Shown piece after piece: positions 24,871 through 52,400 of a stretch of 64,000 nucleotides of DNA. Made by a program: the position numbers and the translations under genes. The notes beneath the pieces are model-generated. The model ran no database searches and was not told where the DNA came from. It was given only the letters and a program-made list of their open reading frames with translations. How positions within the stretch are numbered: position 1 is the stretch's first letter; each line of letters begins with the position of its first letter. Source of the stretch: Mobula hypostoma (taxonomy: Eukaryota); contig NC_086123.1 of NCBI RefSeq assembly GCF_963921235.1, positions 3,844,001-3,908,000 on the forward strand, given 5' to 3'.

Positions 24871-26335
24871 CCCTTTGTTTTATAAAATCTTTTCCAGAAT
24901 GTAATATAACACAGAGCTGCACTGATCAGGGCACTGGAGGGTATCCAAATCCCGACTTGTGCCTTGTAGATGGCGGCCCAAGTCTTTGGGCTGTAAGAAG
25001 TGAATCACTGACTGCAGTGCGTTTAAATTCTGACTTGTTCTCCTAACTGCTAGTTGGTGGCCTTTATTTAGTTTTGGGTCAGTGGTGATCCCACAATGTT
25101 GATCAAGGGGGAACAAAGTGATGGGAGTGGTGTAGTGGATTTTTTTTGGAAATACTTATTGCCTGATACCTGTGTCAGTGAATGATACTCAGTGACTAAG
25201 AATCTGTGCCTGGAAATTGCTTGGACGGTGTGCAGAGAACAGATCCTGAACTGTGGCCAACAGGTTCCATTACGTGAAATAGGAGAAGGAGTAACCATTT
25301 GGCTCCAAAAGCCTGCCTCACTGTTTCTCAAGATCTAGCTTCTTCTTTGGCCTCAACACTTTTCCCTGTCCCTTTCCCAAATCCCCGGATTCCTCCCTTT
25401 TCCCAAATTCAATGGGTTTCAGGTTGGAATGAATTCAGAGGGAGCATCCACGGCCCCGGGATGCAAACTTGCACAGTTTCAGACCTACAAGGCTATTCTT
25501 TTAACCTAATCCCATGACCCCTGGTTCCAGTCCCCACCAGTGCAGAAAACATCCCTCCATATCTGTCCTGTGATCCCTGCTGTGGCTTTGAATTTCAGTC
25601 TGCAGAAAATGCATTCAAACTAACAAACAAAGGAATAGTCTTCTTCTCTTCACCTCAGGGCATAACAAAGTCTCTACATGGTAGTGAGCAGTCTGTACAC
25701 AGCATGATTCTATTGGAATTATGACCAGATAAATTATCTAAGCTGGAAGTATCACAGTATCATAGGGATCTTCTCAGCTTTTTTGTAACACATAGTTTCC
25801 TCCATCTGAGAGCTCAGTTTAACACCTCAGGAGAGAGTGAACTCCTAGGGTGAGGTCAGCCTTCTCTCGGGACTGCAGTGGAACATCACCCTTGCAAATT
25901 GTGTTAATGTCACTGCAGTGGGTCTGAAACCTCAGAGTCACAGGCAAGAGCCAAGGCTGCTGCTTGGGGCCACATCAGTGGTGAAGGGCTGGGGATTACC
26001 AGGGACTCTTCAAGAACCTTGTCCACAATGCTTCATTGTGGTGTAGATCTTCATTGGATTTGTTATTTTAATGTCAATTTGTGTCTGACATCAGTTTAAA
26101 AGGATCCATTGACTCTAGAAATGATGAGGTCATCACAATAAAATAAAAAAGCCCTAATTACAACTACTGTAATATTTTAAACAATATACAGAGCATTGAC
26201 ATAAAGATTAGAATATTGCACATACTATATAGATAGAAGCTGAAATACTAAAGCATAAAACTATCTTTCATTCCTTCACATTCCAAGGCTAATATGTTTA
26301 AAATAATGCATGATTTCAAATATGTTTCTTTCCAG

Positions 26336-26454
26336 ATACAGATAACTGTTGAAAGAATTTTATCTGTGAATGTGATCGTAAGGCAGCCATCTGCTTCTCA
26401 AAAGCAGAATACAACTCTGAGCATTACTTCATAGATCAGTCCCGCTGTAAATAT
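26336..26454 (+). pseudogene. PLA2 copy C relic: orphan exon 4 with a premature stop
   Basis: TTTCTTTCCAG acceptor, then [41 protein letters not shown] at 26350-26352 replaces Cys91 and the normal TAG stop reads TAT. Flanks at about 25130-27250 are diverged homologues of copy A intron 3 and 3' flank. I found no exons 1-3 upstream. Confidence 0.85.
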
Positions 26455-27554
26455 GAGTTTTCTGGCCATGCGTTTATGAATTTCCTTGACATTGAATGAC
26501 AAATACTTTCCATCCAAATTGTATCATCCATTTTATTTCCAGGAAATCTAAACATCTTTGATCTCCATATCTGCTATGTTAATGTAATCAATAATCTCAT
26601 TTGCAATCAACACCCTTTATCTTGTTCTCATAGTCTAATGTTATCTGTGACATTAGGGAAGCTAAAGACCTTTATTATTTCAACCTTCCTCCCAGTGAAA
26701 GCACATTATTCTTGTGAATTTCTTCCCATCATTTTAGAAAATAAATTCTGGAATTATCCATATCCATTTTCTTCAGATCTTCTCCAGAGTATTAAAGTTG
26801 CAGCACTTGGGAATCTTATGGAACAGCCGGATGCATATCCTACTCGGACACTGTTCATTCCCTCGCCTAGGCTTTCTTTAAAACCTCATCTGTGGAAGCT
26901 GAGCAGGTACCTGCTCAGTTTCAGGTGATTTTTGTCATTGGATGATCCACCACATGTAATGAGGCTGTTTCTAATTGATGCCATTCTTCTAAAGCCAAAA
27001 ATGATTATAGGCACTGGTAACACTAAGGTGGTGGATGTCCATCTCCTATAATCTACTAACACTGATTTGAGAGCATTTGAGCATGTCTGGTGTTGCAGTT
27101 CCTGTGTAACGCAGTGAGTAAAAGTAGTTTAAGGATGGGATGCCTGGGCTGGAGTGTTTACAACCCACAGACAAAGCAGGCAGGATGTTCAACAAATCTT
27201 CATCTACCTTGCCCACCTCCCAGCCTCCTCCCTCCACTCAGTAAGCAGAGTGCCCATTGCATTTATGACAGGTTATGGTGAGGGACCAAGATAGAGCTCA
27301 GGGAATTTCTGAATTTCTGACATTGAACGAGACAGCAAAATGAAATTGACCGCCTTGAGCTTTGACCTCAGGATCAGCCTTTGAAGGGAAGATATTGCTT
27401 CCATTCACATACATTACGAGCAACAGAGGTCTCATCACGAGTCCCTGCAGAACACTACTGTACTATCTCACCACTACCCTCTGGCGTCTATATGCAAAGC
27501 AATTTTGAATTCAAACTATTAAGTCACCATGGATTCCACCTGCCTTAATCTTCC

Positions 27555-33614: not shown

Positions 33615-33733
33615 CTATTTGCATCGAGATTGACTGATGCCTTTATTCTCAATGTTGTATTTTGCTTTCGAGAAGCAGATGGCCGCCTTTCGATCACATT
33701 CACAGATAAACTTCGCGCAGTGATAATTACCAC
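33615..33733 (-). CDS. PLA2G1B: PLA2 copy B exon 4
   Basis: 119 nt; [41 protein letters not shown]. Confidence 0.9.
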
Positions 33734-36700: not shown

Positions 36701-39700
36701 TATATAGCTGCAACATTACCTCTCAGCTCCTAAACTCAATCCCATGATTGATGAAGCCCAATGCACAGAACCACAGAAGGCAAGACAGCAGCTATATTTG
36801 ATCTGGAATTTGAGGAAATTTGGTTTGTCAACTAAAACACTCAAAAATTTCTCCAAGTGTACCGTGGAGAGCGTTCTGACTGGCTGCATCACTGTCTGGT
36901 GTGCGGGAGGGGGCTACTGCACAAGATTGAATTAAGTTGCAGAAACCTGTAAAATTAGTCAGCTCCGTCATGTGTACCAGCCTCTGTAGTATCCAAGACA
37001 TCTTCAAGAGTGATGCCTCAGGAAGGCGGCATCCATCATTAAGGACCCTCACCACCCAGTACATGCCCTCTTCTCATTGTTACCATCACGGAGGAGGTAC
37101 AGAAGCCTGAAGACACACACTCAGCAATTCAGGAACAGTTTCTTCCCCTCTGCCATCCGATTTCTAAATGGACATTAATCCCATGAACACCACCTCACTA
37201 CTTCTTTATTTCTGTTATTTTGCACTATTTGTTTAAACTCAATTAATTAATAGACATGTGTATAAAAAAAAAGCACCTCGTGCTTTCCCGGCATATATGA
37301 TGAATAAACTGTTCTTGGGCTTCCAGCTGGGTACCGGTATTGATTATCACTGATGCTTTGATGACGTCAGATATAATTAATACCTGTACTTGGGTAGAAG
37401 CCCAAGAAGAGTTTATTAGACATATATACTTAATGTTAATCAGTTTTTCTGTATATTTATTTATCGTGTATTTCATTGTACTGCTGCTGTAAAGTTAACA
37501 AATTCCACAACATGTGCTGGTGATATTAAACCTGATTCCGATTCGGATTCTAATTATTCTTCTTAGAACTCACTCACTTTGTGTTGCAGGTGTCTCGTTT
37601 GGGATCAGACACTCTCTTTGCATTTATCAATTTTATTCAATTTGGGTAACTGAATCAGCACAGGATTTTCTCTGTCTTTCAGTGTAGTCGTTGACTTGGG
37701 GGTTAATGTTTTGCCTGGGCTCCGGGGCTGTTCTGAATTCCTATGTGTTTCAGGGTGTAGGTCAGGGGAACTGGCCAACCCCTCTTTGCTCAGTCATTGT
37801 GGGCCCTTGTCTGGTGAAACTTTGTCCGAGTTCTTCTGTGTATCTGAGCGATTTCTGTTTGTCAGGATTCTGCATAGTTTGCCTGAGCTCTTGTTAGTTT
37901 TCTTGCTTACTTTCTGTCTTAAATCTGTTGTTGTGTTTGAATTGCCAGAGTCTCTGTGATTTTGCACTGGAGTTCACTGGTGACCCTCACATATAATTCA
38001 CCAAGATGCATTAACGAGTGTTTACAAGAGCAGGTCAGAACTTAAACATCCCATAAGAAGTGATTGATGTCTTACTGCTTGAAGCCTTTCCACCATCAGC
38101 CAGGCGTGGGATATCGCCCCAGTACCTGGGTGAGCGCAGCTCCCAAACACAGAAGGAGCTCGTCATTACTAGTGACAAAGGAACTGATTTCATTGCAACT
38201 CTGTCTGTATGGATGGCATGAAAAACAAAGCTTTTCACTGTGGCTTGTTACCTGCGACAATAATAAACCAAATGAAATGATCTCTACCAATATCCACTAT
38301 CAGCATTCTGTGCTATTGTACAATTCAGCAGCCAGTGTATCTCAGCCAAATCTCCCAGACCAATAACCTTTACCATCTAGAGGGACAGAGATCAGCATCA
38401 CATACAGGTCCCTGCAAGTCTCACACCATCCAGACATGGAACATAACCCGTTCCTCCATCATCACTGGGTCTGAATGCTGGAGCTTCAGCACAAGAGCAT
38501 TGTGGGAGAACCATCACCAGGGCAACTCCAGTGGTTCAAGATGGCAGCTCACCAGCACCGTCACAAAGACAATGAGGGATGGACAAAAGTTGCTGACCAT
38601 GGAAGCAGAGATAAAAATTAGACAATGAGGCACTCTCTGATCATACTCACCTGTACATTCGAGTTTCCCATTTGAGCAGCTGTACTTGTAATATACCATT
38701 TTGGGTGAATAGACTATTCTGCACTTCTCTTTCTTCTCAGCATCTTCATAACAGTTGTCATGGGTCTGGCAGCACCTGTAAAATCACAGATAATGTTTAG
38801 TAGAAAACTCATGGACTAGAGTTAACAGAACACTGTTACAGCAGCCTCCAGTGTCAGACACTTCCCATGTAGAGCTAAGAGTCAGGAGGTGATCTGAGCT
38901 GAGGGTAACTGAGCAGGCTCATATCGTACCAGGGAGTTGAGGAGGAGCTTCACAGTGGGACGTGGAATCAGGATCTGTGGGGACTCAGGCAGGAATGTGG
39001 AAAAGAATTCCTCCAAGTGACATGACCACAATAGACCTGAGAAGGTGACCAATGTTTAGTTCTTCCCTTTTTCTATGGATTGTGTGTGTTCAAGACCCAA
39101 CAACAAGCAACAGACTGATCGACCAGCTGGTTGCCCTCTCTCCTTTCCTTCCTCGCTCCCTTACTAAGGTAGCTACAGTGTCATGGTTCTCTCTTGTGCT
39201 GCCATGATCGAACCCCCTGTTCAATCCTCCAGAAGGACAGAATCCTCCCTGGGAGCAGCTGCTCTGTCCTCGGTGTGTTCCACTACACAGTCCTGAACTC
39301 CTGTACAGACCGGTGGCACTGCAAACCCAGCACTACCCTCTGTACCATCACTGGGGCTCTGAAGTCAACAGGCACTGAGTGTCTCCCAGCCCTAGCAAGT
39401 GTCATTGTCCTCCCCCACCCTCAGCAGGAAACCTTCAGCCCCAGCTGCACCAATCTGTGATCTGTCTCTCGTGATCACTGCAGGACAGACGGCATATCCT
39501 GATCACGGCTCACATCTCAGAAAACACCACTGGAGAGGTTCCAGCAAATCAACTCGCTAAAACCACGATGCAAAAAATTCTTCAACAGAGACCGCATTAC
39601 CAACTCAATGGAGCCAATTTCAGGACTGAAAGTGACACCAAGCAGAAAATTAATACACGGCCATATCTGCACCAACGGAAACTTAACTCAAGTCGGAGTT

Positions 39701-40296
39701 CTGACAACTACAGCAAAAAGCAGATTGTGAGATATACCATCAGCAATTGCCCTCTCTGATTATTTCCAGGACACACGGCCAGTATTTGTGTGGCCACAGT
39801 AGGCACCATAACCCGGCTGCGAACCCCATGACATCAATTGTCACTCACTACCACCATCAGAAACATATTTCACATTGGCAGATTTAATGGGGTATCTTAA
39901 AGCTTCAGTGAAGATGCAATCCTGCTGCCTCTGACAATGAATGAGAACATTTCCCTGTCCCTGGACTCCAATGGATGGTAACTGGCTCTGTAGAGATCGT
40001 CTGTCCACCTACCGTTCAAGGTCATCCACTGGTGTCCCAGATCCACCAGTTCCACAGTAACAGCCGTAGTTATTGAATTGCAGTGGTGAAGTGATGCTTG
40101 GGTTGGCACATTTAATCATTTTATTGAACTGATAAAGGTTCCTGGACTCAATGGAAGTGCTCCCAACACCAGCTACATCAGGAGAGAGAGGAACAGACAG
40201 ACACAAACAGGTTAGAACATGAAGCAACCAACATCAAAGTAAGGCTCACTCGAGGAGAGTCTCCTTACCTGAGAGCAGAAGCAGGACAAACAGGCC
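33615..40296 (-). CDS. PLA2G1B: Group I PLA2 copy B: exons 2-4 intact (40172-40013, 38775-38651, 33733-33615); exon 1 truncated (40296-40269) with native ATG lost; chimeric gene or very young pseudogene
   Basis: Mature product [123 protein letters not shown]. All splice sites, 14 Cys and H48/D49/D99 are retained. Homology to copy A stops at codon 3 (A: ATGTTGGGCCTG; B: GCTTTTGGCCTG). Confidence 0.85.
34018..34185 (+). mobile_element. Penelope terminal fragment replacing about 240 bp of intron 3 in copy B
   Basis: The equivalent of A 51911-52150 is missing in B and this repeat lies in its place. Confidence 0.8.
34051..34086 (+). ncRNA. Minimal type I hammerhead ribozyme motif of a Penelope repeat (representative copy)
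   Basis: AGTC-CTGACGA-AGGGTCTCGGCCT-GAAA-CG-TC-GACT: conserved CUGANGA and GAAA boxes, GUC cleavage triplet, AGTC/GACT stem I and palindromic ACGT stem III. Confidence 0.65.
34299..34418 (-). mobile_element. Penelope terminal fragment, copy-B-specific
   Basis: 15-bp duplication GATATTTTATCTGGT (34284-34298, 34419-34433); empty site in A near 51800-51815. Confidence 0.85.
36142..36765 (-). mobile_element. CR1 3' end nested in an L2 fragment (about 35790-37530)
   Basis: [19 protein letters not shown]; CATAGAAA tail repeats at about 36145-36160. Confidence 0.85.
38651..38775 (-). CDS. PLA2G1B: PLA2 copy B exon 3
   Basis: 125 nt; TTTTACAG acceptor, G|GTGAGT donor; [41 protein letters not shown]. 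Confidence 0.9.
40013..40172 (-). CDS. PLA2G1B: PLA2 copy B exon 2
   Basis: 160 nt with the same splice sites as copy A; covered by ORF 40009..40227. Confidence 0.9.
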
Positions 40297-40525
40297 AAAA
40301 GCAGGCAAGGACGGGATTTTGAGGCCTAGCCTGCAAAAGATTCCTGACCACACAGTAACGACAGCAGCGAACGGGCGTTTCAGAAATTTCTCCAGATGTT
40401 CCTCTGTGCTTTCCCGTCCATTCTCCATCAAATCAGAATTGTCCACGGCCCCTATTTAACAGATACGATATCATTTTGCACCGGAGAGCTGCGCACATGC
40501 AGGCGCGCCGCCATCTTCTCCTCCC
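40297..40525 (-). mobile_element. Retroelement 5'-UTR-like segment fused to PLA2 copy B exon 1
   Basis: CpG-rich; begins GGAGAAGATGGCGGCG, a YY1 consensus typical of internal LINE promoters. The family assignment is from resemblance only. Confidence 0.55.
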
Positions 40526-41207
40526 GCCAGACAAGATTATTGTCCTAAACTTAAGACGAGACCTTAAGCCTTAAAGTTATAGACAGCTATTAGCCTACTC
40601 ACTTGAGAGAGGTTATACTGTAGCAACCTATAAGTCAAAGACTAATTTACTTATCTATTTTGGTCTCTTTTCTGAATGAGTTTAGCTGTCAGTAATCACT
40701 ATTTCGAGTGGTGGGACCACCCCTCACAACCAAGGAGGGGATACTTCCAGCTAACAAAGCAGATTAAACATCATTATTTTATTCTTAAAGAGCACATTTA
40801 CTCTCTGCAGTAATTCGAACAGAGATTATAATTCTAAAGAAGATTTCCAGACACAAGTACCATTCTTACAAAAACTTTGCAATGAGTTGCAGACAGACAT
40901 GTCAGGGCCACAGAAAGGAGGCTTTCTGCAGTTGTAAGTCTCGGGTTGAGACCGAGGAGAAGATTCTATGTCTTCATCTCTGTCAGTCCTCACAACCCCA
41001 CTTCCTTCTAAAGTTTATATCCATTTTATTGCCATTCATCTAAAGTCACCTCATTGGCCCGTGATGTTTTCACAACTGGATTTATCAGGTTAGATGGCAG
41101 GACCCTTAGATTAAAGTAGACAATGTGTTTTCTCTGGATTGGGTTCAAGTCTCAGGTAGGTTCCTGTCCCTGAACCTGCACGTTATTTCTCGATGGGAAA
41201 CGGAAGT

Positions 41208-41915
41208 AGAATCATAGAGAAGTACAGAACAAAAATTGTCCATGCCGAAAACTATTAAATTGCCTACTCCCATCGACCTGCACCGGACCATAACCCTCCA
41301 TACCCCTACCATCCATGCACCGATCCAAACTTCTCTTAAGTGTTGAAATCGAGCTCTCATGCACCACTTACGCTGGCAGCTTGTTCCACGCTCTCACCAC
41401 CCTCTGAGTGAAGAAGTTTCCCTTCATGTTCTCCTTAAACTTTTCACCTTTCACCCTTAACCCATGACCTCTGGTTGTAGTCTCACTCAACCTCAGTGGA
41501 AAACGCCTGCTTGCATTTACAATACCTAAGGACTAATAATTTTGTACATCTCTATCAAATCTCCTCTCAATCTTCTACGTTCTAAGGAATACTGTCCTAA
41601 CCCATGTAATCTTTCCTTATAACTCAGGTCCTCAAGCCCCAGCAACACATCCTTGTAAATATTCTCTGTATTTGTTCAACCTTGTTTATAACTTTCCTGT
41701 TAGTAGGTGATCAAAACTGCACACAATACTCCAAATTAGGCCTCATTAACGTCTTATACAGCTTCAACATAATATCCCATCTCCTGTACTCAGTACATTG
41801 ATTTATGAAAACCAATGTGGCAAAAACTTTCTTTATGACCCTATGAACCTGAGAGGCCACTTTCAATGAATTATGGATCCCTTTGCTCCACCGCACTCTT
41901 CTGTGCCCTACCATT
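41208..41915 (-). mobile_element. CR1 3' fragment
   Basis: LKLYKTLMRPNLEYCVQF. Confidence 0.8.
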
Positions 41916-41919
41916 CGGT

Positions 41920-42270
41920 GAGCTGCCTCCTAACCCTGCACCGGAAGATCAAACGCTCTCTTGAACTCAACCACGAGTTGGTGGAAGGACTGAGCTGTAG
42001 GGGGAACCTTGTTCTCACAGAGCATTGAACAGGTGAATGGAGTCCGAGTGATTCACCACGTACGCACATCATCACTGAACCGACCTGGCTGGGCTTGGAA
42101 AGTCAGCTCACACTGGGTCATAAACTTCCTGCAGCCGTTAGGGTCACCGGAGTATCTGCCTGGTGGAGGGATGCTCGGCTGTGATCCAGAATCAGCTGAA
42201 GGAATGGCTGAGACTGTGATGGGGAAGATGTGGGACATCCCGGAGTGGGATCGTCGGTGCTGAAGGCTGT
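41920..42270 (-). mobile_element. Ty3/Gypsy (Sushi-like) gag fragment
   Basis: PPPGRYSGDPNGCRKFMTQCELTFQAQPGRFSDD. Confidence 0.75.
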
Positions 42271-42512
42271 AAATTGCAGGCTCTATCCCTCCAGAAACGT
42301 TTTTAAGGTGAAAACATACGTAAAAGAAGTGAAAAAGCTTTTTGCTTACCATCTGGAAGATGTCGACTATGGGAACGTCGTACGCTGGCGCCATCTTGAC
42401 CACTTTTTTCATGTTCTGAATTGATAGAAAGTGGGTGAGTGATCCATGAGTTTCAAAAGAGATTTGCCAAATTTTGAGATCCTGTGATTTGGTGAGAGTA
42501 AAGAGAGAATGA

Positions 42513-42520
42513 AAGAGAGA

Positions 42521-42576
<56 letters not shown>

Positions 42577-42592
42577 GGAGAGAAAGAGAGAG
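42513..42592. repeat. (GA)n microsatellite
   Basis: Seen directly. Confidence 0.95.
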
Positions 42593-45500
42593 TGAGTGTG
42601 GAGGGAAAAGAGAGCAGATGAGGCTGAGTTTCAAAAATGTTCCTTGAAGCTTGGGAGCTTTTGAGATCCTGTGATTCAGAGAGAGTGAGAATGAAGGTCG
42701 GATAGAGACCAGATAATATACAGAGATGAAGAGCAAGATAGGGATTTTGAATTCACTCCATGTTTGATGAAATAGACTGTAACCTAAGGAAAATTATGAT
42801 TTTTTAATCTTAGACAAAGTTGCTTTGCTCGTGATGAGCTAAAGTTGGGAGGTGTTTTACCTTTCCTTTAACTATGATATTCCAATCCATTTGTTAGTTA
42901 TCTGAACTATAGTTGGTGAAAACAAAACATGAACTGGGTCATGTACAATTCAGGAAGATATAATAAAACTCACAGGGATTTGGAATATTGGCTCAAAGCT
43001 TTAAAAATAGACAATACTGTTTTGGTAATTCTGCCAAATATTTTAGGACAATTAGGAGGAATCATAAATGTTGTTTTCCTCAATAAGAATGGGCTTATTT
43101 TCTCTTTCTGACAAGCTGAACCAAACATAAATGGTCAATACTCCTGTTCAAACTGCTCTTCTGGAGCAAGAGTTTGTTGGGAAAACTACTACTTATTTTA
43201 ACTTAGTTACAGTAAGGAGCAGTCTTTGTCTTGTACAATGCGAATGCACAGATGTAATGATCACTTCTTACACATCACATGCAAATAATCAATAAAACTG
43301 CTAAGAGTTGGAACACTGACTAAAAATGTAATTTGAATTGCTGAGTTTGTCAGGTAGCAATAATCTGCAGCCTGAGAACAAAGGATTGTAATGGAATAAA
43401 AAGGCAAATGAGGGGGCTGTGATGAGTTGCCCGACACCGTTGGTTGGCAGATTTCAAGTTCAGCTGTCTGTCCCTGCTCCCGAGTAGAAACTTTGAACCT
43501 CACCCAAACAGGGTCAAACATACAGTGGTAGGTTGGGGTAGGGAAAGGGAACATTCTGAGGTTTGGAAGCCCAGAGCTGCATCATAGAATGGAAACTGCA
43601 GGGAGTGAAGAGCCACATTTCTTTTTGTGTATTGCAGATGAAGTAATTCTGTGAGTATTGAGGGGAAGTGACAGGGAAGAATGGAGAGGGAGGTGACACA
43701 ACCACAGTCATTAATTTACCAGGTTCCATGGTGGAACATCTGGTCCATCAGGACTCAGAGTGTCAGTGTACGGTGATCCAGATCAGAAACATTGAATAGG
43801 TTCCAGAGCATCAGTCAGCTCTCCCATCCAGGATGGGCAAGTTCATTCCGATCACGTAGATGGACTGCTTCAAGTATCAGCAGAGTTGTGTCTCACATCA
43901 GAATATTTCTCCTGTTGTTCCTTGTGCCACCTTGGTCAACATAATGTCTTCACTTCCCTGGTCTTCTCCTGGCCTGGTCTGCCTGATCCTTCAGGCTGTA
44001 TCCCGCATTCGTCATCAGCAATGGAGAATCAGAGGGATGAAGTGAACATTCATCGTTAGTGGATGGTCTGGTGCCCCAACACTGCGTGTGGGACTGGGAA
44101 AAGGTTGAATCATGTGGCTACACTCTCTATGGTTCCTGATGGGACTGCACTAGGTTAGCACTGACACAGATGTTGTTATTTGGTTTCCACTCCGGCCATC
44201 TTGTCTACCTGGGAGTAAACCGTGCTCATTGAGGCAAATCCAGTTTCCTTACCACAGCCGTCTTCAGTGTCGACAGGAGAAACAATTCTTTCTCTGGGAT
44301 CTCACAGTCAGCAATGAATTGCTCTTCTTTGGTGCAACTCCATTACATTTTGTTTCCAGTGCTCCTTCGCAGTTCTTGAATCAGAATCAGGTTTATTATC
44401 ACGGACATACGTCATACAGTATATATGTCAGATGTCATGGTCAACCTCTCAAAACACTTCATCGCAGTGGATGTGAGCGAAGGACTTGATGAAGTCCCTC
44501 ATTCATTCTATTGTGGTTGTTGGATTTTCTGAGTATGCCCGCAAGAAAATGAATCTCAGGCTTGTATATAGTGCATATATATACTTTGAACTTTGAAATT
44601 TAATAGCTACGTACAAGACTTAAGATCTTGGCTTGTTTCGGACAATAAAATGGGTATACCCGATATCATCACGTTCACTCCTGACATGGTTTTGTTTCTG
44701 CCTCCCCGTGTCCTAGGGTGTGGAGTGTGTGTGGTCACACATTTGGATGCTTAATGCTCTGTTAAACTGATGTGTAGACTGGTGCCCCGTGGGTCTCTTT
44801 ATGCCCCAACAGGGCTGTAAAACTGCCCCTTTGTGATACCCTCCCTCAATTTGACAATAAAGTTGCAAGGGTCAAGTTTTGAACAGTCAGTTTCGTGCTA
44901 ATGCTGAGATGGGGGCAATTTAGGTTTCAGTGGGTGATATTTGTTGGACCTGTCCCCCAAACTCTCTCTGGAAAGTGGAGCTGGAGGAAGGAGGGTGGAA
45001 GGGGTTCTTTTATTGATGGGGTCACCACCATGGTCACCAATCCCCAGGAAGAGCACCACCTCCCTCTCCATCCCTCCATGACTCGTCCCTTTCACACCTG
45101 AAAGTTGCTTAACCTTTAGGGCACAGAAAATGAGGCTCCATCATCACTACAGCTGCCATTCTGTGACAATATTCCTCTTCTAAGTTTGACCCCATTTGGT
45201 CGAGGTTCACATTGTGCTCAGGAGTTGGGGTGAAGCAGGAAATATAGCTTATGATCTGTTCAACCCAATACCTCAAATACCAACCCAACACCCCGACAAT
45301 TCCCACCTTCACCCACATTTCATCCTATTGTAAATCAACATTTTCTCACAAGTCAGCCAGAAAACCCAGTGCTTCAACTTGGGTTGTTTCAGTACAAATT
45401 CCGATTGTTATTGGTCAGAACTATTCATTTATGTTTGGTGAGATAAAGATGAGCAGGTGTGTGCATTTGCATGGAATGAGATTCTAGATCTTCTTCAGCA

Positions 45501-46131
45501 GAATGAGGGATTTGCATTTTATTCATATCCAGTATGTATGGGGAACTGTTTATATGGAGCTGTACGTGACTGGAATGGAATTTTGATCAATTCCTCTGAA
45601 TTAATTAGTATAGATAACTTACTAATAAAAAAATTGTGTTCTTGTGATTGAGGGAGAAGGTCAAAAGTCATGCAGGTGCTTTACATGATGGAAGACTGTT
45701 AAAAGCTTAACTTTTCAGTGAATTGAAACAAGGTCGTCAAAGAAAAAGAAGAATGCAAAATGTCTGTGGCTCAGACACATATCTTAACGTCTGAAATCTG
45801 TAGGAATGCTGGAGGTTATTAATCATGCAGACACATCCGGACACCTCAAATCAAACAAAACTGAATGGTCTTCATGTTTTATCATTTTCCAATCTCTGGT
45901 TCTGAAACCTCTCATGCAACTCGCAGGGCAAGTCCCACAGTGACTCTTCTCATTTTCAGAGGTGACACCACATCCTCACCATATTGTGATACCAATTATC
46001 GAGAGTTCGTGTCGTAACAATTCCAACCCATCACCCCGTCTCACTCTGTATTCAGTGTCTATGTGTCAATCAGTGAAACCCATCATGAGCGCACTTGAGG
46101 TAGTTACACTCACTCATAATAGAACACAGTC

Positions 46132-46197
46132 TCACACACACGCACACACTCATACATGTAAATTGACACACACTCAAACACACACACACACACACAC
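46132..46197. repeat. (CA)n microsatellite upstream of the copy A promoter, mirrored as (TG)n at 57702-57770
   Basis: Seen directly. Confidence 0.9.
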
Positions 46198-46254
46198 TGA
46201 GAAGAGTCGGAAGCAGTCAGGATTGGCTCTGTCTCTCCAGCTCAGTCAAATAGA

Positions 46255-46320
46255 GATCAGCTGTATCAACAGGAGAGTTTGTCTTTATCTTATCCATGTT
46301 ATCAGCTCCCAATATATAAT
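46255..46320 (+). promoter_or_regulatory. Proximal promoter of PLA2 copy A: TATA box, GATA-type sites and an E-box
   Basis: TATATAA at 46313-46319; CAGCTG at 46258-46263; TTATCT and TTATCA (reverse WGATAA) between them. Function is inferred from position only. Confidence 0.65.
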
Positions 46321-46374
46321 CCAGGGACTGAACCTCACAAGTGTGATTTCCAGGACAGGGAAGAGCAAACGACA

Positions 46375-46408
46375 ATGTTGGGCCTGTTTGTCCTGCTTCT
46401 GCTCTCAG
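46375..46408 (+). CDS. PLA2G1B: PLA2 copy A exon 1 (signal peptide [11 protein letters not shown])
   Basis: ATG at 46375, about 55 nt after the TATATAA motif; donor CAG|GTAAGG at 46408/46409. Confidence 0.9.
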
Positions 46409-49400
46409 GTAAGGAGACTCTCCTCGAGTGAGCCTTACTTTGATGTTGGTTGCTTCATGTTCTAACCTGTTTGTGTCTGTCTGTTCCTCTCTCTCCTGAT
46501 GTAGCTGGTGCTGGGAGCACTTCCATTGAGTCCAGGAACCTTTATCAGTTCGGTGCAATGATTAAATGTGCCAACCCAAGCATCACTTCACCACTGCAAT
46601 TCAATAACTACGGCTGTTACTGTGGATCTGGTGGATCTGGGACACCAGTAGATGACCTTGACCGGTAGGTGGACAGACGATCTCTACAGAGCCAGTTACC
46701 ATCCTTTGGAGTCCAGGGACAGGGAAATGTTCTCATTCATTGTCAGAGGCAGCAGGATTGCATCTTCACTGAAGCATTAAAATACCCCATTAAATCTCCC
46801 AATGTGAAATATGTTTCTGATGGTGGTAGTGAGTGACGATTGATGTCATGGGGTTTGCAGGCAGGTTATGGTGCCTGCGGTGGCCACACAAATACTGGCC
46901 GTGAGTCCTGGAAATAATCAGAGAGGGCAATTGCTGATGGTATATCTCACAATCTGCTTTTTGCTGTAGTTGTCAGTACTCCGACTTGAGTTAAGTTTCC
47001 GTTGGTGCAGATATGGCCGTGTATTAATTTTCTGCTTGGTGTCACTTTCAGTCCTGAAACTGGCTCCATTGAGTTGGTAATGCGGTCTCTGTTGAAGAAT
47101 TTTTTGCACCGTGGTTTTAGCGAGTTGATTTGCTGGAGCCTCTCCAGTGGTGGTTTCTGAGATGTCAGCCGTGATCAGGATATGCCGTCTGTCCTGCAGT
47201 GATCACGAGAGACAGATCACAGATTGGTGCAGCTGGGGCTGCAGGTTTCCTGCTGAGGGTGGAGGAGGACAATGACACTTGCTAGGGCTGGGAGACACTC
47301 AGTGCCTGTTGACTTCAGAGCCCCAGTGATGGTACAGAGGGTAGTGCTGGGTTTGCAGTGCCACCGGTCTGTACAGGAGTTCAGGACTGTGTTGTGGAAC
47401 ACACCGAGGACAGAGCAGCTGCTCCCAGGGAGGATTCTGTCCTTCTGGAGGATTGAACAGGGGGTTCGATCATGGCAGCACAAGAGAGAACCATGACACA
47501 GTAGCTCCCTTAGTAAGGGAGCGAGGAAGGAAAGGAGAGAGGGCAACCAGCTGGTCGATCAGTCTGTTGCTTGTTGTTGGGTCTTGAACACACACAATCC
47601 ATAGAAAAAGGGAAAAAATAAGCATTGGTCACCTTCTCAGGTCTATTGTGGTCATGTCACTTGGAGGAATTCTTTTCCACATTCCTGCCTGAGTCCCCAC
47701 AGATCCTGATTCCACATCCCACTGTGAAGCTCCTCCCCAACTCCCTGGTACGATATGAGCCTGCTCAGTTACCCTCAGCTCAGATCACCTCCTGACTCTT
47801 AGCTCTACATGGGAAGTGTCTGACACTGGAGGCTGCTGTAACAGTGTTCTGTTAACTCTAGTCCATGAGTTTTCTACTAAACGTTATCTGTGATTTTACA
47901 GGTGCTGCCAGACCCATGACAACTGTTATGGTGATGCTTCGACAAAAGAGAAGTGTGGATTTCTCAAATCACCCAAAGTAATATATTACAAGTACAGCTG
48001 CTCAAGCGGGAAAATCGAATGTGATAGTGAGTATGATCGGAGAGTGTCTCATTGTCTTATTTTTATCTCTGCTTCCATGGTCAGCAACTTTGGTCCATCC
48101 CTCATCGTCTTTGTGAAGGTGCTGGTAAGGACATGTTCGGCACAGCTTTGTGGACAGAGGGCCTGTATTGTGCTGTAGAGTTTCTATGTTTCTATGGTCT
48201 CTGTAGCTGCATCAATATGTAGTGACCTGGTTAAGTCCTCAGAGATATTGACACCCAGGAACTTGAAATTGCCCATTCTCTCCACTCCTGATAGATACAG
48301 AAATAAACTGAATGGCAGTAATTACATATATGTTTATTAAATAGTTAAATTAAAGACATAGTACAAAAAAAGGAAATAAAAAAGTAATGGGGTAGTGTTC
48401 GTAAGTTTAATGTCCATTTAGAAATCAGATGGCAGAGAGAAAGAAGCTAGTCTTGACGTGTGTGCCTTCAAGCTTCTGTACCTCCTTCCTGACGGTAACA
48501 ATGAGAAGAGGGCATGTACTGGGTGGTGAGGGTCCTTAATACTGGACAACTCCTTCCTGAGGCAGCTTATGGGACATAAAGGCTAAGCAATCCAAGGAAG
48601 ACTATACACCTGAGAATTATGAGAGGCATAGATAAAATAAACAATCGCAGCCCTTTTCCAAGGCAGGAAAGTCTAAAACTAGAGGTCTAGGTTTAACGTG
48701 GGAGTAGAAAAAGTTTTAAAAGGAACAACTTGTTCACACAGAGGCTGCTGGGTATGTAGAAGGTGCAAAGGAGATGGGAACAATTACAATATTTCAAAGA
48801 TAGTTGGAAAGCTTCAGAGGGATCTGGGCCAAGTGCAGGCAGAAGGGTTAGCATAGAAAGACAGTGGGTCAGCATGGATGAGTTGGGCCGAAGAGCCTGG
48901 CTCAGAGCTGCAAAACCTTTACGACTCTATTAATGTGAAAGATGGCTGAATTACGCTCCTTATTTGAAGATGGTTATTGTCTGACACGTGTGTGTTGTTA
49001 ATGTTACTCACCAGCTAGTGGTCAGGGCCCAGATATTGCTGGATCATATGCAGAGAGCAAATTATGAACTGAGTATTATTGATGAGTAATTTATAATTAT
49101 CATGGAAAAAGATAGAATCAAAGAGGACAGGGAAATTTTTAATTGGGGAAAGGCAAATTATGAGGCTATAAGGCTAGAACTTGCGGATGTGAATTGGGAT
49201 GATGTTTTTGCAGGGAAATGTACTATGGACATGTGGTCGATGTTTAGAGATCTCTTGCGGGATGTAAGGGATAAATTTGTCCCGGTGAGGAAGATAAAGA
49301 ATGATAGGGTGAAGGAACCATGGGTGACAAGTGAGGTGGAAAATCTAGTCAGGAGGAAGAAGGCAGCATACATGAGGTTTAGGAAGCAAGGATCAGATGG

Positions 49401-52400
49401 CTGTATGGAGGAATGTAGGGAAGCAAGAAAGGAGCTTAAGACGGGGCTGAGAAGAGCAAGAAGGGGGCATGCGAAGGCCTTGGCGAGTAGGGTAAAGGAA
49501 AACCCCAAGGCATTCTTCAATTATGTGAAGAAAAAAAGGATGACAGGAGTGAAGGTAGGACCGATTAGAGATAAAGGTGGGAAGATGTGCCTGGAGGCTG
49601 TGGAAGTGAGCGAGGTCCTCAATGAATACTTCTCTTTGGTATTCACCAATGAGAGGGAACGTGATGATGGTGAGGACAATATGAGTGAGGTTGATGTTCT
49701 GGAGCATGCTGATATTAAGGGAGAGGAGGTGTTGGAGTTGTTAAAATACATTAGGACAGATAAGTCCCCGGGGCCTGACGGAATATTCCCCAGGCTGCTC
49801 CATGAGGCGAGAGAAGAGATTGCTGAGCCTCTGGCTAGGATCTTTATGTCCTCGTTGTCCACGGGAATGGTACCGGAGGATTGGAGGGAGGCGAATGTTG
49901 TTCCCTTGTTCATAAAAGGTAGTAGGGATAGTCCGGGTAATTAAAGACCAGTCAGCCTTACGTCTGTGGTGGGAAAGCTGTTCGAAAAGATTCTTAGAGA
50001 TAGGATCTATCGGCATTTAGAGAATCATGGTCTGATCAGGGACAGTCAACATGGCTTTGTGAAGGGCAGATCGTGTCTAACAAGCCTGATAGAGTTCTTT
50101 GAGGAGGTGACCAAGTATATAGATGAGGGTAGTGCAGTGGATGTGATCTATATGGATTTTAGTAAGGCATTTGACAAAGTTCCACATGGTAGGCTTATTC
50201 AGAAAGTTAGAAGGCATGGGATCCAGGGGAGTTTGGCCAGGTGGATTCAGAATTGGCTTGCCTGCAGGAGGCAGAGGGTGGTGGTGGAGGGAGTACATTC
50301 AGATTGGAGGATTGTGACTAGTGGTGCCCCACAAGGATCTGTTCTGGGACCTCTACTTTTCGTGATTTTTATTAACGACCTGGATGTGGGGGTAGAAGGG
50401 TGGGTTGGCAAGTTTGCAGACGACACAAAGATTGGTGGTGTTGTAGATAGTGTAGAGGATTGTCAAAGATTGCAGAGAGACATTGATAGGATGCAGAAGT
50501 GGGCTGAGAAGTGGCAGATGGAGTTCAACCCGGAGAAGTGTGAGGTGGTACACTTTGGAAGGACAAACTCCAAGGCAGAGCACAAAGTAAATGGCAGGAT
50601 ACTTGGTAGTGTGGAGGAGCAGAGGGATCTCAGGGTACATGTCCACACATCCCTGAAAGTTGCCTCACAGGTGGATAGGGTAGTTAAGAAAGCTTATAGG
50701 GTGTTAGCTTTCATAAGTCGAGGGATAGAGTTTAAGAGTTGCGATGTAATGATGCAGCTCTATAAAACTCTGGTTAGGCCACACTTGGAGTATTGTGTCC
50801 GGTTCTGGTCACCTCACTATAGGAAGGATGTGGAAGCATTGGAAAGGGTACAGAGGAGATTTACCAGGATGCTGCCTGGTTTAGAGAGTATGCATTATGA
50901 TCAGAGATTAAGGGAGCGAGGGCTTTACTCTTTGGACAGAAGGAGGATGAGAGGAGACATGATAGAGTTGTACAAGATAATAAGAGGAATAGATAGAGTG
51001 GAAAGCCAGCGCCTCTTCCCCAGGGCACCACTGCTCAATACAAGAGGACATGGCTTTAAGGTAAGGGGTGGGAAGATCAAGGGAGATATTAGAGGAAAGT
51101 TTTTTACTCAGAGAGTGGTTGGTGCGTGGAATGCACTGCCTGAGTCAGTGGTGGAGGCAGATACACTAGTGAAGTTTAAGAGACTACTAGACAGGTATAT
51201 GGAGGAATCTAAGGTGGGGGCTTATATGGGAGGCAGGGTTTGAGGGTCGGCACAACATTGCGGGCCAAAGGGCCTGTACTGTGCTGTACTATTCTATGTT
51301 CTATGTATAAGTACCGTCTGGTAGCACTGACACAATCAAAAAGCATTTGAAATAGTAGATTGAGTAAATATTTGGCTCTGAAAGCCTGCTGCACTATTTG
51401 TCAAGATATAGGTTTATCTTCTTGCTCAACACTTTTTCCTGACATATTTCAATATCCCCAGATTCCTACAATTTCCCAAATTTAATCAGCTTCAGTTTTG
51501 AGTGAATTCATGGCATCCACAGCCCTCTGGCACAGGATCTTCCCCCAGTTTGAACCCTCAATGGTTTGCCCTTAATCTGCGCCAGTGACCCCTGATTCTA
51601 TTTCCCATCAGTACAGGAAACACCCTCTCCATATCTGTCCTGTGATCCCTGCTGTGGTTTCAAAATTCAACCCACAGAAAATGGATTCAGATGAATAAAA
51701 GGAGGAATATTTTTGCTTCACTTCATCTCAGCATTTTACAGAATGCAATAGAAATGTTGTGACCAGTTTGTTTGCAGCAAGATCCCAATGGAGCCATGAC
51801 CAGATAAAATATCTAAGCTGATATTTGCAGGACAATTCTGATCACATTAAAAGAGGTTTCTCCCAAGCTCTTTTGTTACATACAATCTCCTCACCAGACA
51901 GATGAAAAATATGCTCAGTTTAACAGTCAGGAGAGAGGGAGATGGGTCACTTCTCCCTCAGGAGCACAGTGGAATATCACTCTTCCAGTTTGTGTTAATG
52001 TCACTGCAGTGGGACTGAAAACTCAGAGTCAGAAGCAAGATCCAAGGCTGCTGCCTGGGGCCACATCAGTGGTGAAGGGCTGGGGGTCACCAGGGACTTT
52101 TCTAGAATTCTAGATTCAGCTATGATTGTGGTGTAGATCTTCACAGGATTTGTTATTCTGATGTCAATGCAAGTCTGACATCAGCTTGAAAGCATCCATT
52201 GACTCTAGAAATGATGAGGTCATCACAATGAAATTAAAAACCCAAATTACAATTAGTATTTTAAATGATTTACAGAACATTTATATAAAGATTAGAATGT
52301 TGCACATAATATATAGATGGAAGCTGAAATATCAAAATATATTAAAATATAAAAATATCTTTCATTCCTTCATAATCCAAAGCAAATATCATTAATATAA

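What the first reader, a model, noticed from the sequence alone, without database searches (positions are those of the whole stretch)
38651..38775. Substitutions cluster in the 53-71 surface segment and N-terminal helix
Seen: [19 protein letters not shown] versus [19 protein letters not shown] (9 of 18 residues differ, many by two-nucleotide codon changes), plus G6N, A7K and S31T. Established: positions in the N-terminal helix, 31 and 63-72 contribute to the interfacial binding surface, and about 53-76 is the anticoagulant/pharmacological region of venom PLA2s. By hand count both mature proteins are basic (about +4 for A, +6 for B). Inference: the copies diverged in membrane or protein target rather than in catalysis.
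Basis: partly seen in the sequence, partly recalled or inferred. Interest (0 to 1): 0.72.

Follow-up and report, generated by a model that had tools for sequence, protein, structure and literature searches.

The report
Ray-only, fast-changing phospholipase A2 gene array
The stretch is one exon of a pancreatic-type phospholipase A2 gene in a ray, part of a gene array found here only in rays, skates and sawfish, whose surface loop changes much faster than its introns, likely under selection to vary the lipids it attacks rather than as a venom, and this particular copy has lost its own promoter and start codon.

Summary
The count is right: in residues 53-70 copies A and B differ at 9 of 18 positions, against 20 of 123 overall and 2.1% in introns (scan p 0.01-0.04). 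The N-terminal 'cluster' (2 of 12) and enrichment on the published membrane face (4-5 of 20) are at chance level. A and B are not a fresh duplicate pair: they are two of eight PLA2G1B-like copies in a devil-ray array, set head to head by an inversion. Five of the nine loop differences split the same way in a second Mobula species, and exon trees disagree, so old loop variants are likely being reshuffled. Site models favour diversifying selection (p 1e-5; 0.08 with both confounders allowed). Copy B, on which the finding sits, lacks about 1.4 kb with the promoter and start codon and is likely silent. Seven of the eight copies are of a batoid-only type with a one-residue-shorter loop and no Tyr69 (six placed in that clade by the tree or segment comparison); skates and sawfish have it too, which argues against venom and factor Xa. 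Best reading: secreted phospholipases tuned to different lipid targets, likely in the gut. New variant of a known kind; interest 0.45.

The parts
38651..38775 (-). Copy B exon 3 (codons 43-85 of the mature enzyme; His48, Asp49, Tyr52, the 53-70 segment)
   Evidence: AG/GT bounds and translation
38694..38747 (-). Copy B codons 53-70, the divergent segment
40013..40172 (-). Copy B exon 2 (propeptide, N-terminal helix, calcium loop; carries D42E at an otherwise invariant site)
40269..40299 (-). Remnant of copy B exon 1: signal-peptide codons from codon 3 on; the native ATG is absent
40300..40540 (-). Repeat-derived sequence joined directly to B's exon 1 at a 3-base microhomology; about 1.39 kb present in copies D and F (promoter, TATA, 5' UTR, ATG) is missing; an in-frame ATG lies at 40428, behind out-of-frame ATGs
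   Evidence: the repeat is hit by many contigs
33615..33733 (-). Copy B exon 4 (Asp99, C-terminus, stop)
46250..46374 (+). Copy A proximal promoter and 5' UTR: E-box near 46258, TATA-like box 46313-46319
   Evidence: sequence; function inferred
46375..46408 (+). Copy A exon 1 (ATG, signal peptide)
46505..46664 (+). Copy A exon 2
47902..48026 (+). Copy A exon 3; codons 53-70 at 47930-47983
52430..52548 (+). Copy A exon 4 with stop; AATAAA follows at about 52748
37544..46152 (.). 8.6 kb block (B exons 1-3 and all DNA up to A's proximal promoter) that is an inverted 96.3% copy of the block holding copy E; explains the head-to-head layout
26313..26477 (+). Orphan, diverged PLA2 exon 4 with an in-frame stop; no exon 2 or 3 found beside it

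Best explanation
This is exon 3 of one copy in a tandem array of pancreatic-type (group IB-derived) secreted phospholipase A2 genes found here only in batoids; the 53-70 loop differs between copies because old loop variants are likely reshuffled by gene conversion and likely kept diverse by selection to change which membrane lipids the enzymes attack, probably in the gut, while copy B itself has lost its promoter and ATG and is likely silent. Shown: array, gene structures, intact catalytic residues, clustering in 53-70, exons more divergent than introns, loop types shared between species, B's deletion, spliced transcripts of sister copies D and F. Inferred: conversion as the shuffling mechanism, positive selection, trypsin activation at the propeptide Arg, lipid-target tuning, gut expression and a defence role.
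For: Eight copies plus an orphan exon within 300 kb of contig C78. 21 batoid rows form one clade at 100/98 in a 43-row tree, apart from the canonical copies of rays, sharks and tetrapods; loop between Cys61 and Cys77 is 14 residues in 20 of 21 (15 in 91 of 93 others) and bovine position 69 is Tyr in 0 of 21 (Lys in 15) against 92 of 93. His48, Asp49, Tyr52, Tyr73, Asp99, Tyr28, Gly30, Gly32 kept in 21 of 21. A vs B: introns 28 of 1333 bases (2.1%), nonsynonymous 29 of 277 sites (10.5%). For residues 53-75 A is nearest to Mobula birostris, Hypanus and Hemitrygon proteins (5 differences; own paralogues 8 or more), D to M. birostris proteins (4), B equally to an M. birostris protein and to E (4), whereas for residues 1-24 A, B, D and F are nearest each other (2-4). 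Best trees differ between exon 2 and exon 3; 303 of 595 informative site pairs are incompatible. A and its M. birostris orthologue differ at 5 of 18 loop positions but 1 of 53 positions after it (p 0.003, window chosen after the fact). Site model on five copies: 17% of codons at omega about 13, LRT 22.5, p 1.3e-5; p 0.019 with site-rate variation and 0.003 with multi-base changes allowed. Spliced contigs in run X2 match copies F (8 of 8 listed differences) and D (9 of 9). Mouse PLA2g1B kills intestinal helminths (PMC5644720, abstract).
Against: Synonymous sites are also more divergent than introns (A vs B 7.6%; exon 3 of five copies 24-30% against 5.1%), and N over S is not significant by counting (p 0.28 for the pair; 0.07-0.18 for five copies). 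With both confounders allowed the selection test falls to p 0.083, background omega is 0.85-1.0, the code is my own, five sequences only, two of them (B, E) possibly pseudogenes. Runs of shared splits are significant only with coding sites; intron-only p 0.22, so conversion tracts are not mapped. Differences are not enriched on published membrane-face positions. No tissue is known for any copy, no activity was measured, and no structure was mapped; the gut and defence steps rest on family knowledge.
Confidence: 0.55

Rival explanations
1. Relaxed constraint plus gene conversion, no positive selection: redundant copies drift, and exon 3 looks divergent only because it carries older tracts than the homogenised introns, in a loop that tolerates change.
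For: Synonymous divergence in exon 3 is also high; A's first 103 bases of intron 3 differ from the others by 6-7%, against about 2% in intron 2; background omega near 1 and p 0.083 with both confounders; 3 of 8 copies are damaged (B, E, C) and B has D42E, seen in 0 of 93 canonical and 0 of 17 other batoid rows; 53-70 is the most variable segment of the family anyway.
Against: Clustering stays at p 0.04 after weighting by batoid variability; A gained or lost 5 loop residues against its orthologue with 1 change in the next 53; omega above 1 survives each confounder singly; all cysteines and catalytic residues are kept in A, B, D, E, F.
Confidence: 0.25
2. The loop varies to escape or engage a protein partner (a PLA2 receptor or inhibitor of host or parasite), not to change lipid preference.
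For: 15-16 of 20 differences lie off the published membrane face; putatively selected sites include 73, 78, 84, 88 and 112, beyond the loop; snake PLA2s use exposed patches for protein targets (PMC2248580, passages).
Against: No partner is known or tested; positions 6, 31 and 63-65 are listed membrane-face positions and the 59-74 loop is counted to the catalytic site.
Confidence: 0.13
3. The copies are venom toxins and the 53-70 segment is an anticoagulant (factor Xa-binding) site, as in snake PLA2s.
For: Same signature as snake venom PLA2 genes, introns more conserved than coding exons (PMC7285919, passages); basic proteins; an acidic-PLA2 hit appears in barb transcriptomes of two Potamotrygon species (PMC4768133, passages); two Hemitrygon copies carry +5 and +6 in 53-70.
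Against: The clade includes skates and sawfish, which have no sting (recalled; I also recall that this devil ray has no tail spine); 53-70 charge is +2 and +1; PLA2 was reported absent from Neotrygon kuhlii and Potamotrygon motoro barb data; the propeptide ends in Arg as in digestive zymogens; PMC2248580 says the anticoagulant site cannot be placed in 53-70 alone.
Confidence: 0.07

Closest known systems
Group IB pancreatic secreted PLA2 (PLA2G1B; bovine chain P0055, porcine P0027; stingray pancreatic enzyme of PMC3050761)
   Same: Four exons, signal peptide plus short propeptide ending in Arg, 14 cysteines with Cys11 and Cys77, full catalytic set; 56-59% identity to pig and cattle rows.
   Different: Cys61-Cys77 loop one residue shorter, Lys in place of Tyr69, Tyr/Ile in place of Trp3, Ser/Thr/Pro in place of Leu31, multi-copy and fast-changing. 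The published stingray pancreatic N-terminus is of the canonical type, not of this clade.
Snake venom PLA2 multigene families (elapid group IA/IB; crotaline 'accelerated evolution' and ASSET segment switching, as reviewed in PMC7285919)
   Same: Tandem copies, introns more alike than coding exons, changes in exposed segments, patchwork of exon segments.
   Different: Separate origin in the tree; no 10-residue elapid loop; present in animals without a sting; no venom-gland evidence.
Group IIA secreted PLA2 (antibacterial, cationic, Lys69; PMC7583969)
   Same: Lys at 69 and net positive charge, up to +11 in copy E and +12 in two Hemitrygon copies.
   Different: Group I cysteine pattern and propeptide, no C-terminal extension (group II definition recalled); charge far below the 23 basic residues of human IIA; antibacterial action untested.

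Membership tests
Secreted PLA2 (Pfam PF00068) | Match above the curated cut-off | tested here: met
   A 120.3 bits, B 116.4 bits, cut-off 32.1
Secreted PLA2 (Pfam PF00068) | His48, Asp49, Tyr52, Tyr73, Asp99 and calcium loop Tyr28-Gly30-Gly32 | tested here: met
   21 of 21 clade rows incl. A and B
Secreted PLA2 (Pfam PF00068) | Calcium-dependent sn-2 hydrolysis | not testable with these tools
   needs an assay
Group I PLA2 | 14 cysteines with Cys11 and Cys77 | tested here: met
   sequence level; the bond itself not shown
Group IB (pancreatic type) | Propeptide ending in Arg for trypsin activation | tested here: met
   A, B, D, E, F end in Arg; G and H do not; cleavage inferred
Group IB (pancreatic type) | Full pancreatic loop (15 residues between Cys61 and Cys77) and Tyr69 | tested here: not met
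   14 residues and Lys in A and B; 15 in 91 of 93 and Tyr in 92 of 93 canonical rows. Copy H of the same array meets it.
Group IB (pancreatic type) | Position beside SIRT4 (human synteny, recalled) | tested here: inconclusive
   best SIR2 hit is on the same contig but 2.3 Mb away; its identity as SIRT4 is my recalled reading
Group IB (pancreatic type) | Expression in pancreas or gut | not testable with these tools
   runs are coded, tissue not given
Elapid venom group IA | Short 10-residue loop | tested here: not met
   14 residues against 10 in the Demansia row
Anticoagulant venom PLA2 | Strongly basic 53-70 region | tested here: not met
   net +2 (A), +1 (B); criterion from PMC2248580, which gives no numeric cut-off in the passages read
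Anticoagulant venom PLA2 | Factor Xa binding and venom-tissue expression | not testable with these tools
   needs assay and tissue RNA
Functional gene (copy B) | Own promoter and start codon | tested here: not met
   TATA-like box and ATG present in A, D, F, G, H; absent in B and E; C has the box but ATA

The most novel reading that the evidence does not exclude
Batoids carry their own, ancient family of secreted phospholipases that evolves exactly like snake venom PLA2 genes but without a venom gland: a gut-defence arsenal in an arms race with parasites or microbes, which has moved towards group IIA features (Lys69, positive charge) from a group IB ancestor.
Probability: 0.3. Interest if true: 0.68.

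Novelty: new variant of a known kind. Interest (0 to 1): 0.45.

Why it matters
The intron-conserved, exon-accelerated pattern of PLA2 genes is usually read as a mark of venom. Here the same pattern appears in a lineage-wide array that includes animals without a sting, and part of it can be traced to old loop variants shared between species rather than to recent point mutation. That offers a non-venom test case for how much of 'accelerated evolution' is selection and how much is conversion, and natural Tyr69-less group I enzymes for studying lipid specificity. Two searches of the paper library for such an expansion gave 0 papers; most subscription journals are not covered, so this is weak evidence of novelty.

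Tried and rejected
N-terminal helix as a cluster: rejected. Enrichment on published membrane-face positions: not significant under three gap placements. A and B as sister copies of a recent inverted duplication: rejected. Whole-gene N over S by counting: not significant. Expression search: no RNA holder listed on record, kinds are guesses; in the two runs laid on B no contig carried B's exon-3 letters or bridged the repeat-exon 1 junction, and no contig covered A's exon 3 in the four runs laid on A; contigs show presence only, so this is no evidence of silence. One 191-base contig of depth 3.5 in run X1 is identical to A's 3' UTR, too thin to use. The database model of B (P0003) takes its first 15 residues from repeat-like DNA 2.1 kb upstream (window about 42394) with no AG at the join; I do not count it as evidence of a start. 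A search for MSI1-like motifs in the 404 kb fetched found none. No PDB sequence search or fold was obtained, so no three-dimensional patch test was made; numbering comes from the bovine chain among the homologues. Searches for Y69K and head-group papers gave nothing usable; two papers were not held, so the head-group role of residues 53, 56 and 69 is recalled only. Earlier scan notes: none.

Full report
What the region is. A six-frame scan and self-comparison show two secreted phospholipase A2 genes head to head in the window: copy B on the - strand (exons at 40299-40269, 40172-40013, 38775-38651, 33733-33615) and copy A on the + strand (46375-46408, 46505-46664, 47902-48026, 52430-52548). The finding's coordinates are exactly B's exon 3. 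Both proteins pass Pfam PF00068. A is identical to a database protein labelled Mobula hypostoma, on a contig of the same length as C78. The window is C78:3844001-3908000 of a 3.48 Gb genome.

Checking the observation. In the mature chain of 123 residues 20 differ between A and B; 9 lie in 53-70, 6 of them two-base codon changes; G6N, A7K, S31T and charges +4 and +6 are as stated. A best 18-residue window with 9 differences occurs in 1.0-1.3% of draws under three nulls and 4.0% when sites are weighted by variability in 14 other batoid copies (from the first 120 hits I set 21 clade rows apart and dropped 2 fused models, 3 elapid rows and 1 engineered mutant, leaving 93, mostly mammals). The N-terminal helix holds 2 of 12, as expected by chance. 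Published group IB membrane-face positions (PMC6635587 Table 5, PMC1934363 Table 1, a figure legend of PMC9862071; passages) hold 4-5 of the 20 differences, expected 2.8-2.9, p 0.14-0.29.

The array. In 404 kb of C78 there are eight copies (B, A, C, D, E, F within 125 kb; G and H about 135 kb further) and an orphan exon 4 with a stop. C has ATA for ATG and no exon 3. B and E share a deletion of about 1.39 kb, relative to D and F, that joins a repeat to codon 3 of exon 1 at a GGC microhomology and removes TATA box, 5' UTR and ATG. An in-frame ATG lies in the repeat about 43 codons before the join in both, behind out-of-frame ATGs; whether it is used is unknown. B also has D42E, absent from 93 canonical and 17 other batoid rows. 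The 8.6 kb from B's intron 3 to A's proximal promoter is an inverted 96.3% copy of E's block, so the head-to-head layout comes from an inversion and B's 5' part is sister to E, not to A.

The clade. A tree of 43 rows puts 21 batoid proteins (devil rays, stingrays, sawfish, skates) in one clade at 100/98, apart from copy H and its orthologues, shark, chimaera, fish, tetrapod and elapid rows. The clade has a Cys61-Cys77 loop of 14 residues (20 of 21; 15 in 91 of 93 others) and never Tyr69 (Lys in 15 of 21; Tyr in 92 of 93 others), while all catalytic and calcium-loop residues are kept. The shark and chimaera rows seen (five proteins, four species) have the canonical loop; a profile search added skate rows only to the clade. 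These searches are word-seeded, so absence in sharks is not proven. The N-terminus published for stingray pancreatic PLA2 (PMC3050761; first quarter of the text and passages) is canonical in type; two canonical-looking copies lie on contig C2.

Age of the loop variants. For residues 1-24, A, B, D and F are nearest each other (2-4 differences); for 53-75, A is nearest proteins of M. birostris, Hypanus and Hemitrygon (5), D nearest M. birostris proteins (4), B tied between an M. birostris protein and E (4). At positions 53, 62, 63, 64 and 69 the M. birostris A-type and B-type proteins differ from each other, B's residue matching the B-type at all five and A's matching the A-type at 53, 63 and 64; at 56, 57, 62, 65 and 69 A differs from its M. 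birostris orthologue, against 1 difference in the 53 residues that follow. So the 9 differences are a sum of old lineage differences and newer changes. Best trees differ between exons 2 and 3 and 303 of 595 informative site pairs among five copies are incompatible, but runs of shared splits are not significant on intron sites alone (p 0.22) and coding runs are inflated by multi-base codon changes. Conversion or unequal crossing-over is therefore inferred, not mapped.

Selection. A vs B: introns 1+2 differ at 2.1%, nonsynonymous sites at 10.5%, synonymous at 7.6%; N over S p 0.28. Five copies (A, B, D, E, F; C lacks exon 3, G and H left out as too distant): introns 5.1% variable, synonymous 15-17%, nonsynonymous 22-23%, N over S p 0.07-0.18. 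The test gives p 0.019 when a class may simply evolve faster, 0.003 when multi-base changes are allowed, and 0.083 with both. Selection is likely, not established.

Expression. No holder is on record as RNA. Run X2, guessed RNA, has a contig that skips intron 2 at GT..AG and two exon-3 contigs that match copy F (8 of 8 listed differences, running on into F's exon 4) and copy D (9 of 9). So at least two copies of the clade are spliced. Tissue is not given.

How it likely works. Intact copies would be secreted with a propeptide, cut after Arg (inferred from group IB, PMC3050761), bind a membrane and hydrolyse phospholipid with the His48/Asp99/calcium machinery (established for the family). The variable loop borders the substrate entrance: PMC2248580 counts residues 59-74 to the catalytic site (passages) and PMC7583969 places Lys69 and its loop at the entrance of group IIA (passages); that residues 53, 56 and 69 set head-group preference is recalled, not read. 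Varying these positions would change lipid preference more readily than turn the enzyme into a factor Xa binder: the 53-70 charge is +2 and +1. A driver that needs many variants could be gut defence: mouse PLA2g1B kills intestinal helminths (PMC5644720, abstract only) and cationic Lys69 group IIA is bactericidal. This step is inference.

Comparison and verdict. It works like a group IB PLA2 and evolves like snake venom PLA2 genes (PMC7285919, passages), but fails two group IB marks and is not shown to be venom; barb transcriptomes give mixed PLA2 results (PMC6315956, PMC4768133, PMC11053709; passages). Searches for 'PLA2G1B, expansion, cartilaginous' and 'phospholipase A2, batoid, gene duplication' found 0 papers. 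No supplements were read; those of the barb transcriptome papers could show whether their PLA2 hit belongs to this clade. Verdict: real hot spot, interpretation partly right, new variant of a known kind, interest 0.45.

Noticed in passing
G000:C78:3915400-3918700 (copy C): Copy with ATA in place of ATG and no exon 3; its exon 4 and 3' UTR are 99% identical to A's.
   Followed up: partly
G000:C78:4153406-4161700 (copy H): Canonical-loop copy (Tyr69) whose propeptide ends in Leu, not Arg; orthologues in M. birostris and Hypanus form a 100/100 clade.
   Followed up: partly
G000:C2:157533048 and 157674235 (L007, L008): Two near-identical canonical group IB-like copies on another contig, both with Asn at calcium-loop position 28; the first has Arg for one of the paired cysteines in exon 3.
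   Followed up: partly
G000:C78:3785467-3841498 vs 4072449-4004741: A large inverted segmental duplication at 98-99% identity brackets copies B-F; could be a recent rearrangement or an assembly effect.
   Followed up: no
window 46250-46320: Promoters of A, D, F share an E-box, several GATA-like words and a TATA-like box; A keeps only about 220-250 bases of the shared upstream DNA.
   Followed up: partly
window 61067-63916 (+) and 49090-51243 (+): Reverse-transcriptase frames of LINE-type repeats, 949 aa and 432 aa; the second sits in intron 3 of copy A.
   Followed up: partly
P0006, P0009 (Hemitrygon akajei rows): Two stingray copies are far more basic (+12 overall, +5 and +6 in 53-70) than any devil-ray copy.
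   Followed up: no
L001 (C45), L002 (C63): PLA2-like frames matched without introns over most of the domain, distant from this array.
   Followed up: no
L053 (G000:C78:1584451-1585065): Long single-exon SIR2 frame on the same contig, 2.3 Mb from the array.
   Followed up: partly
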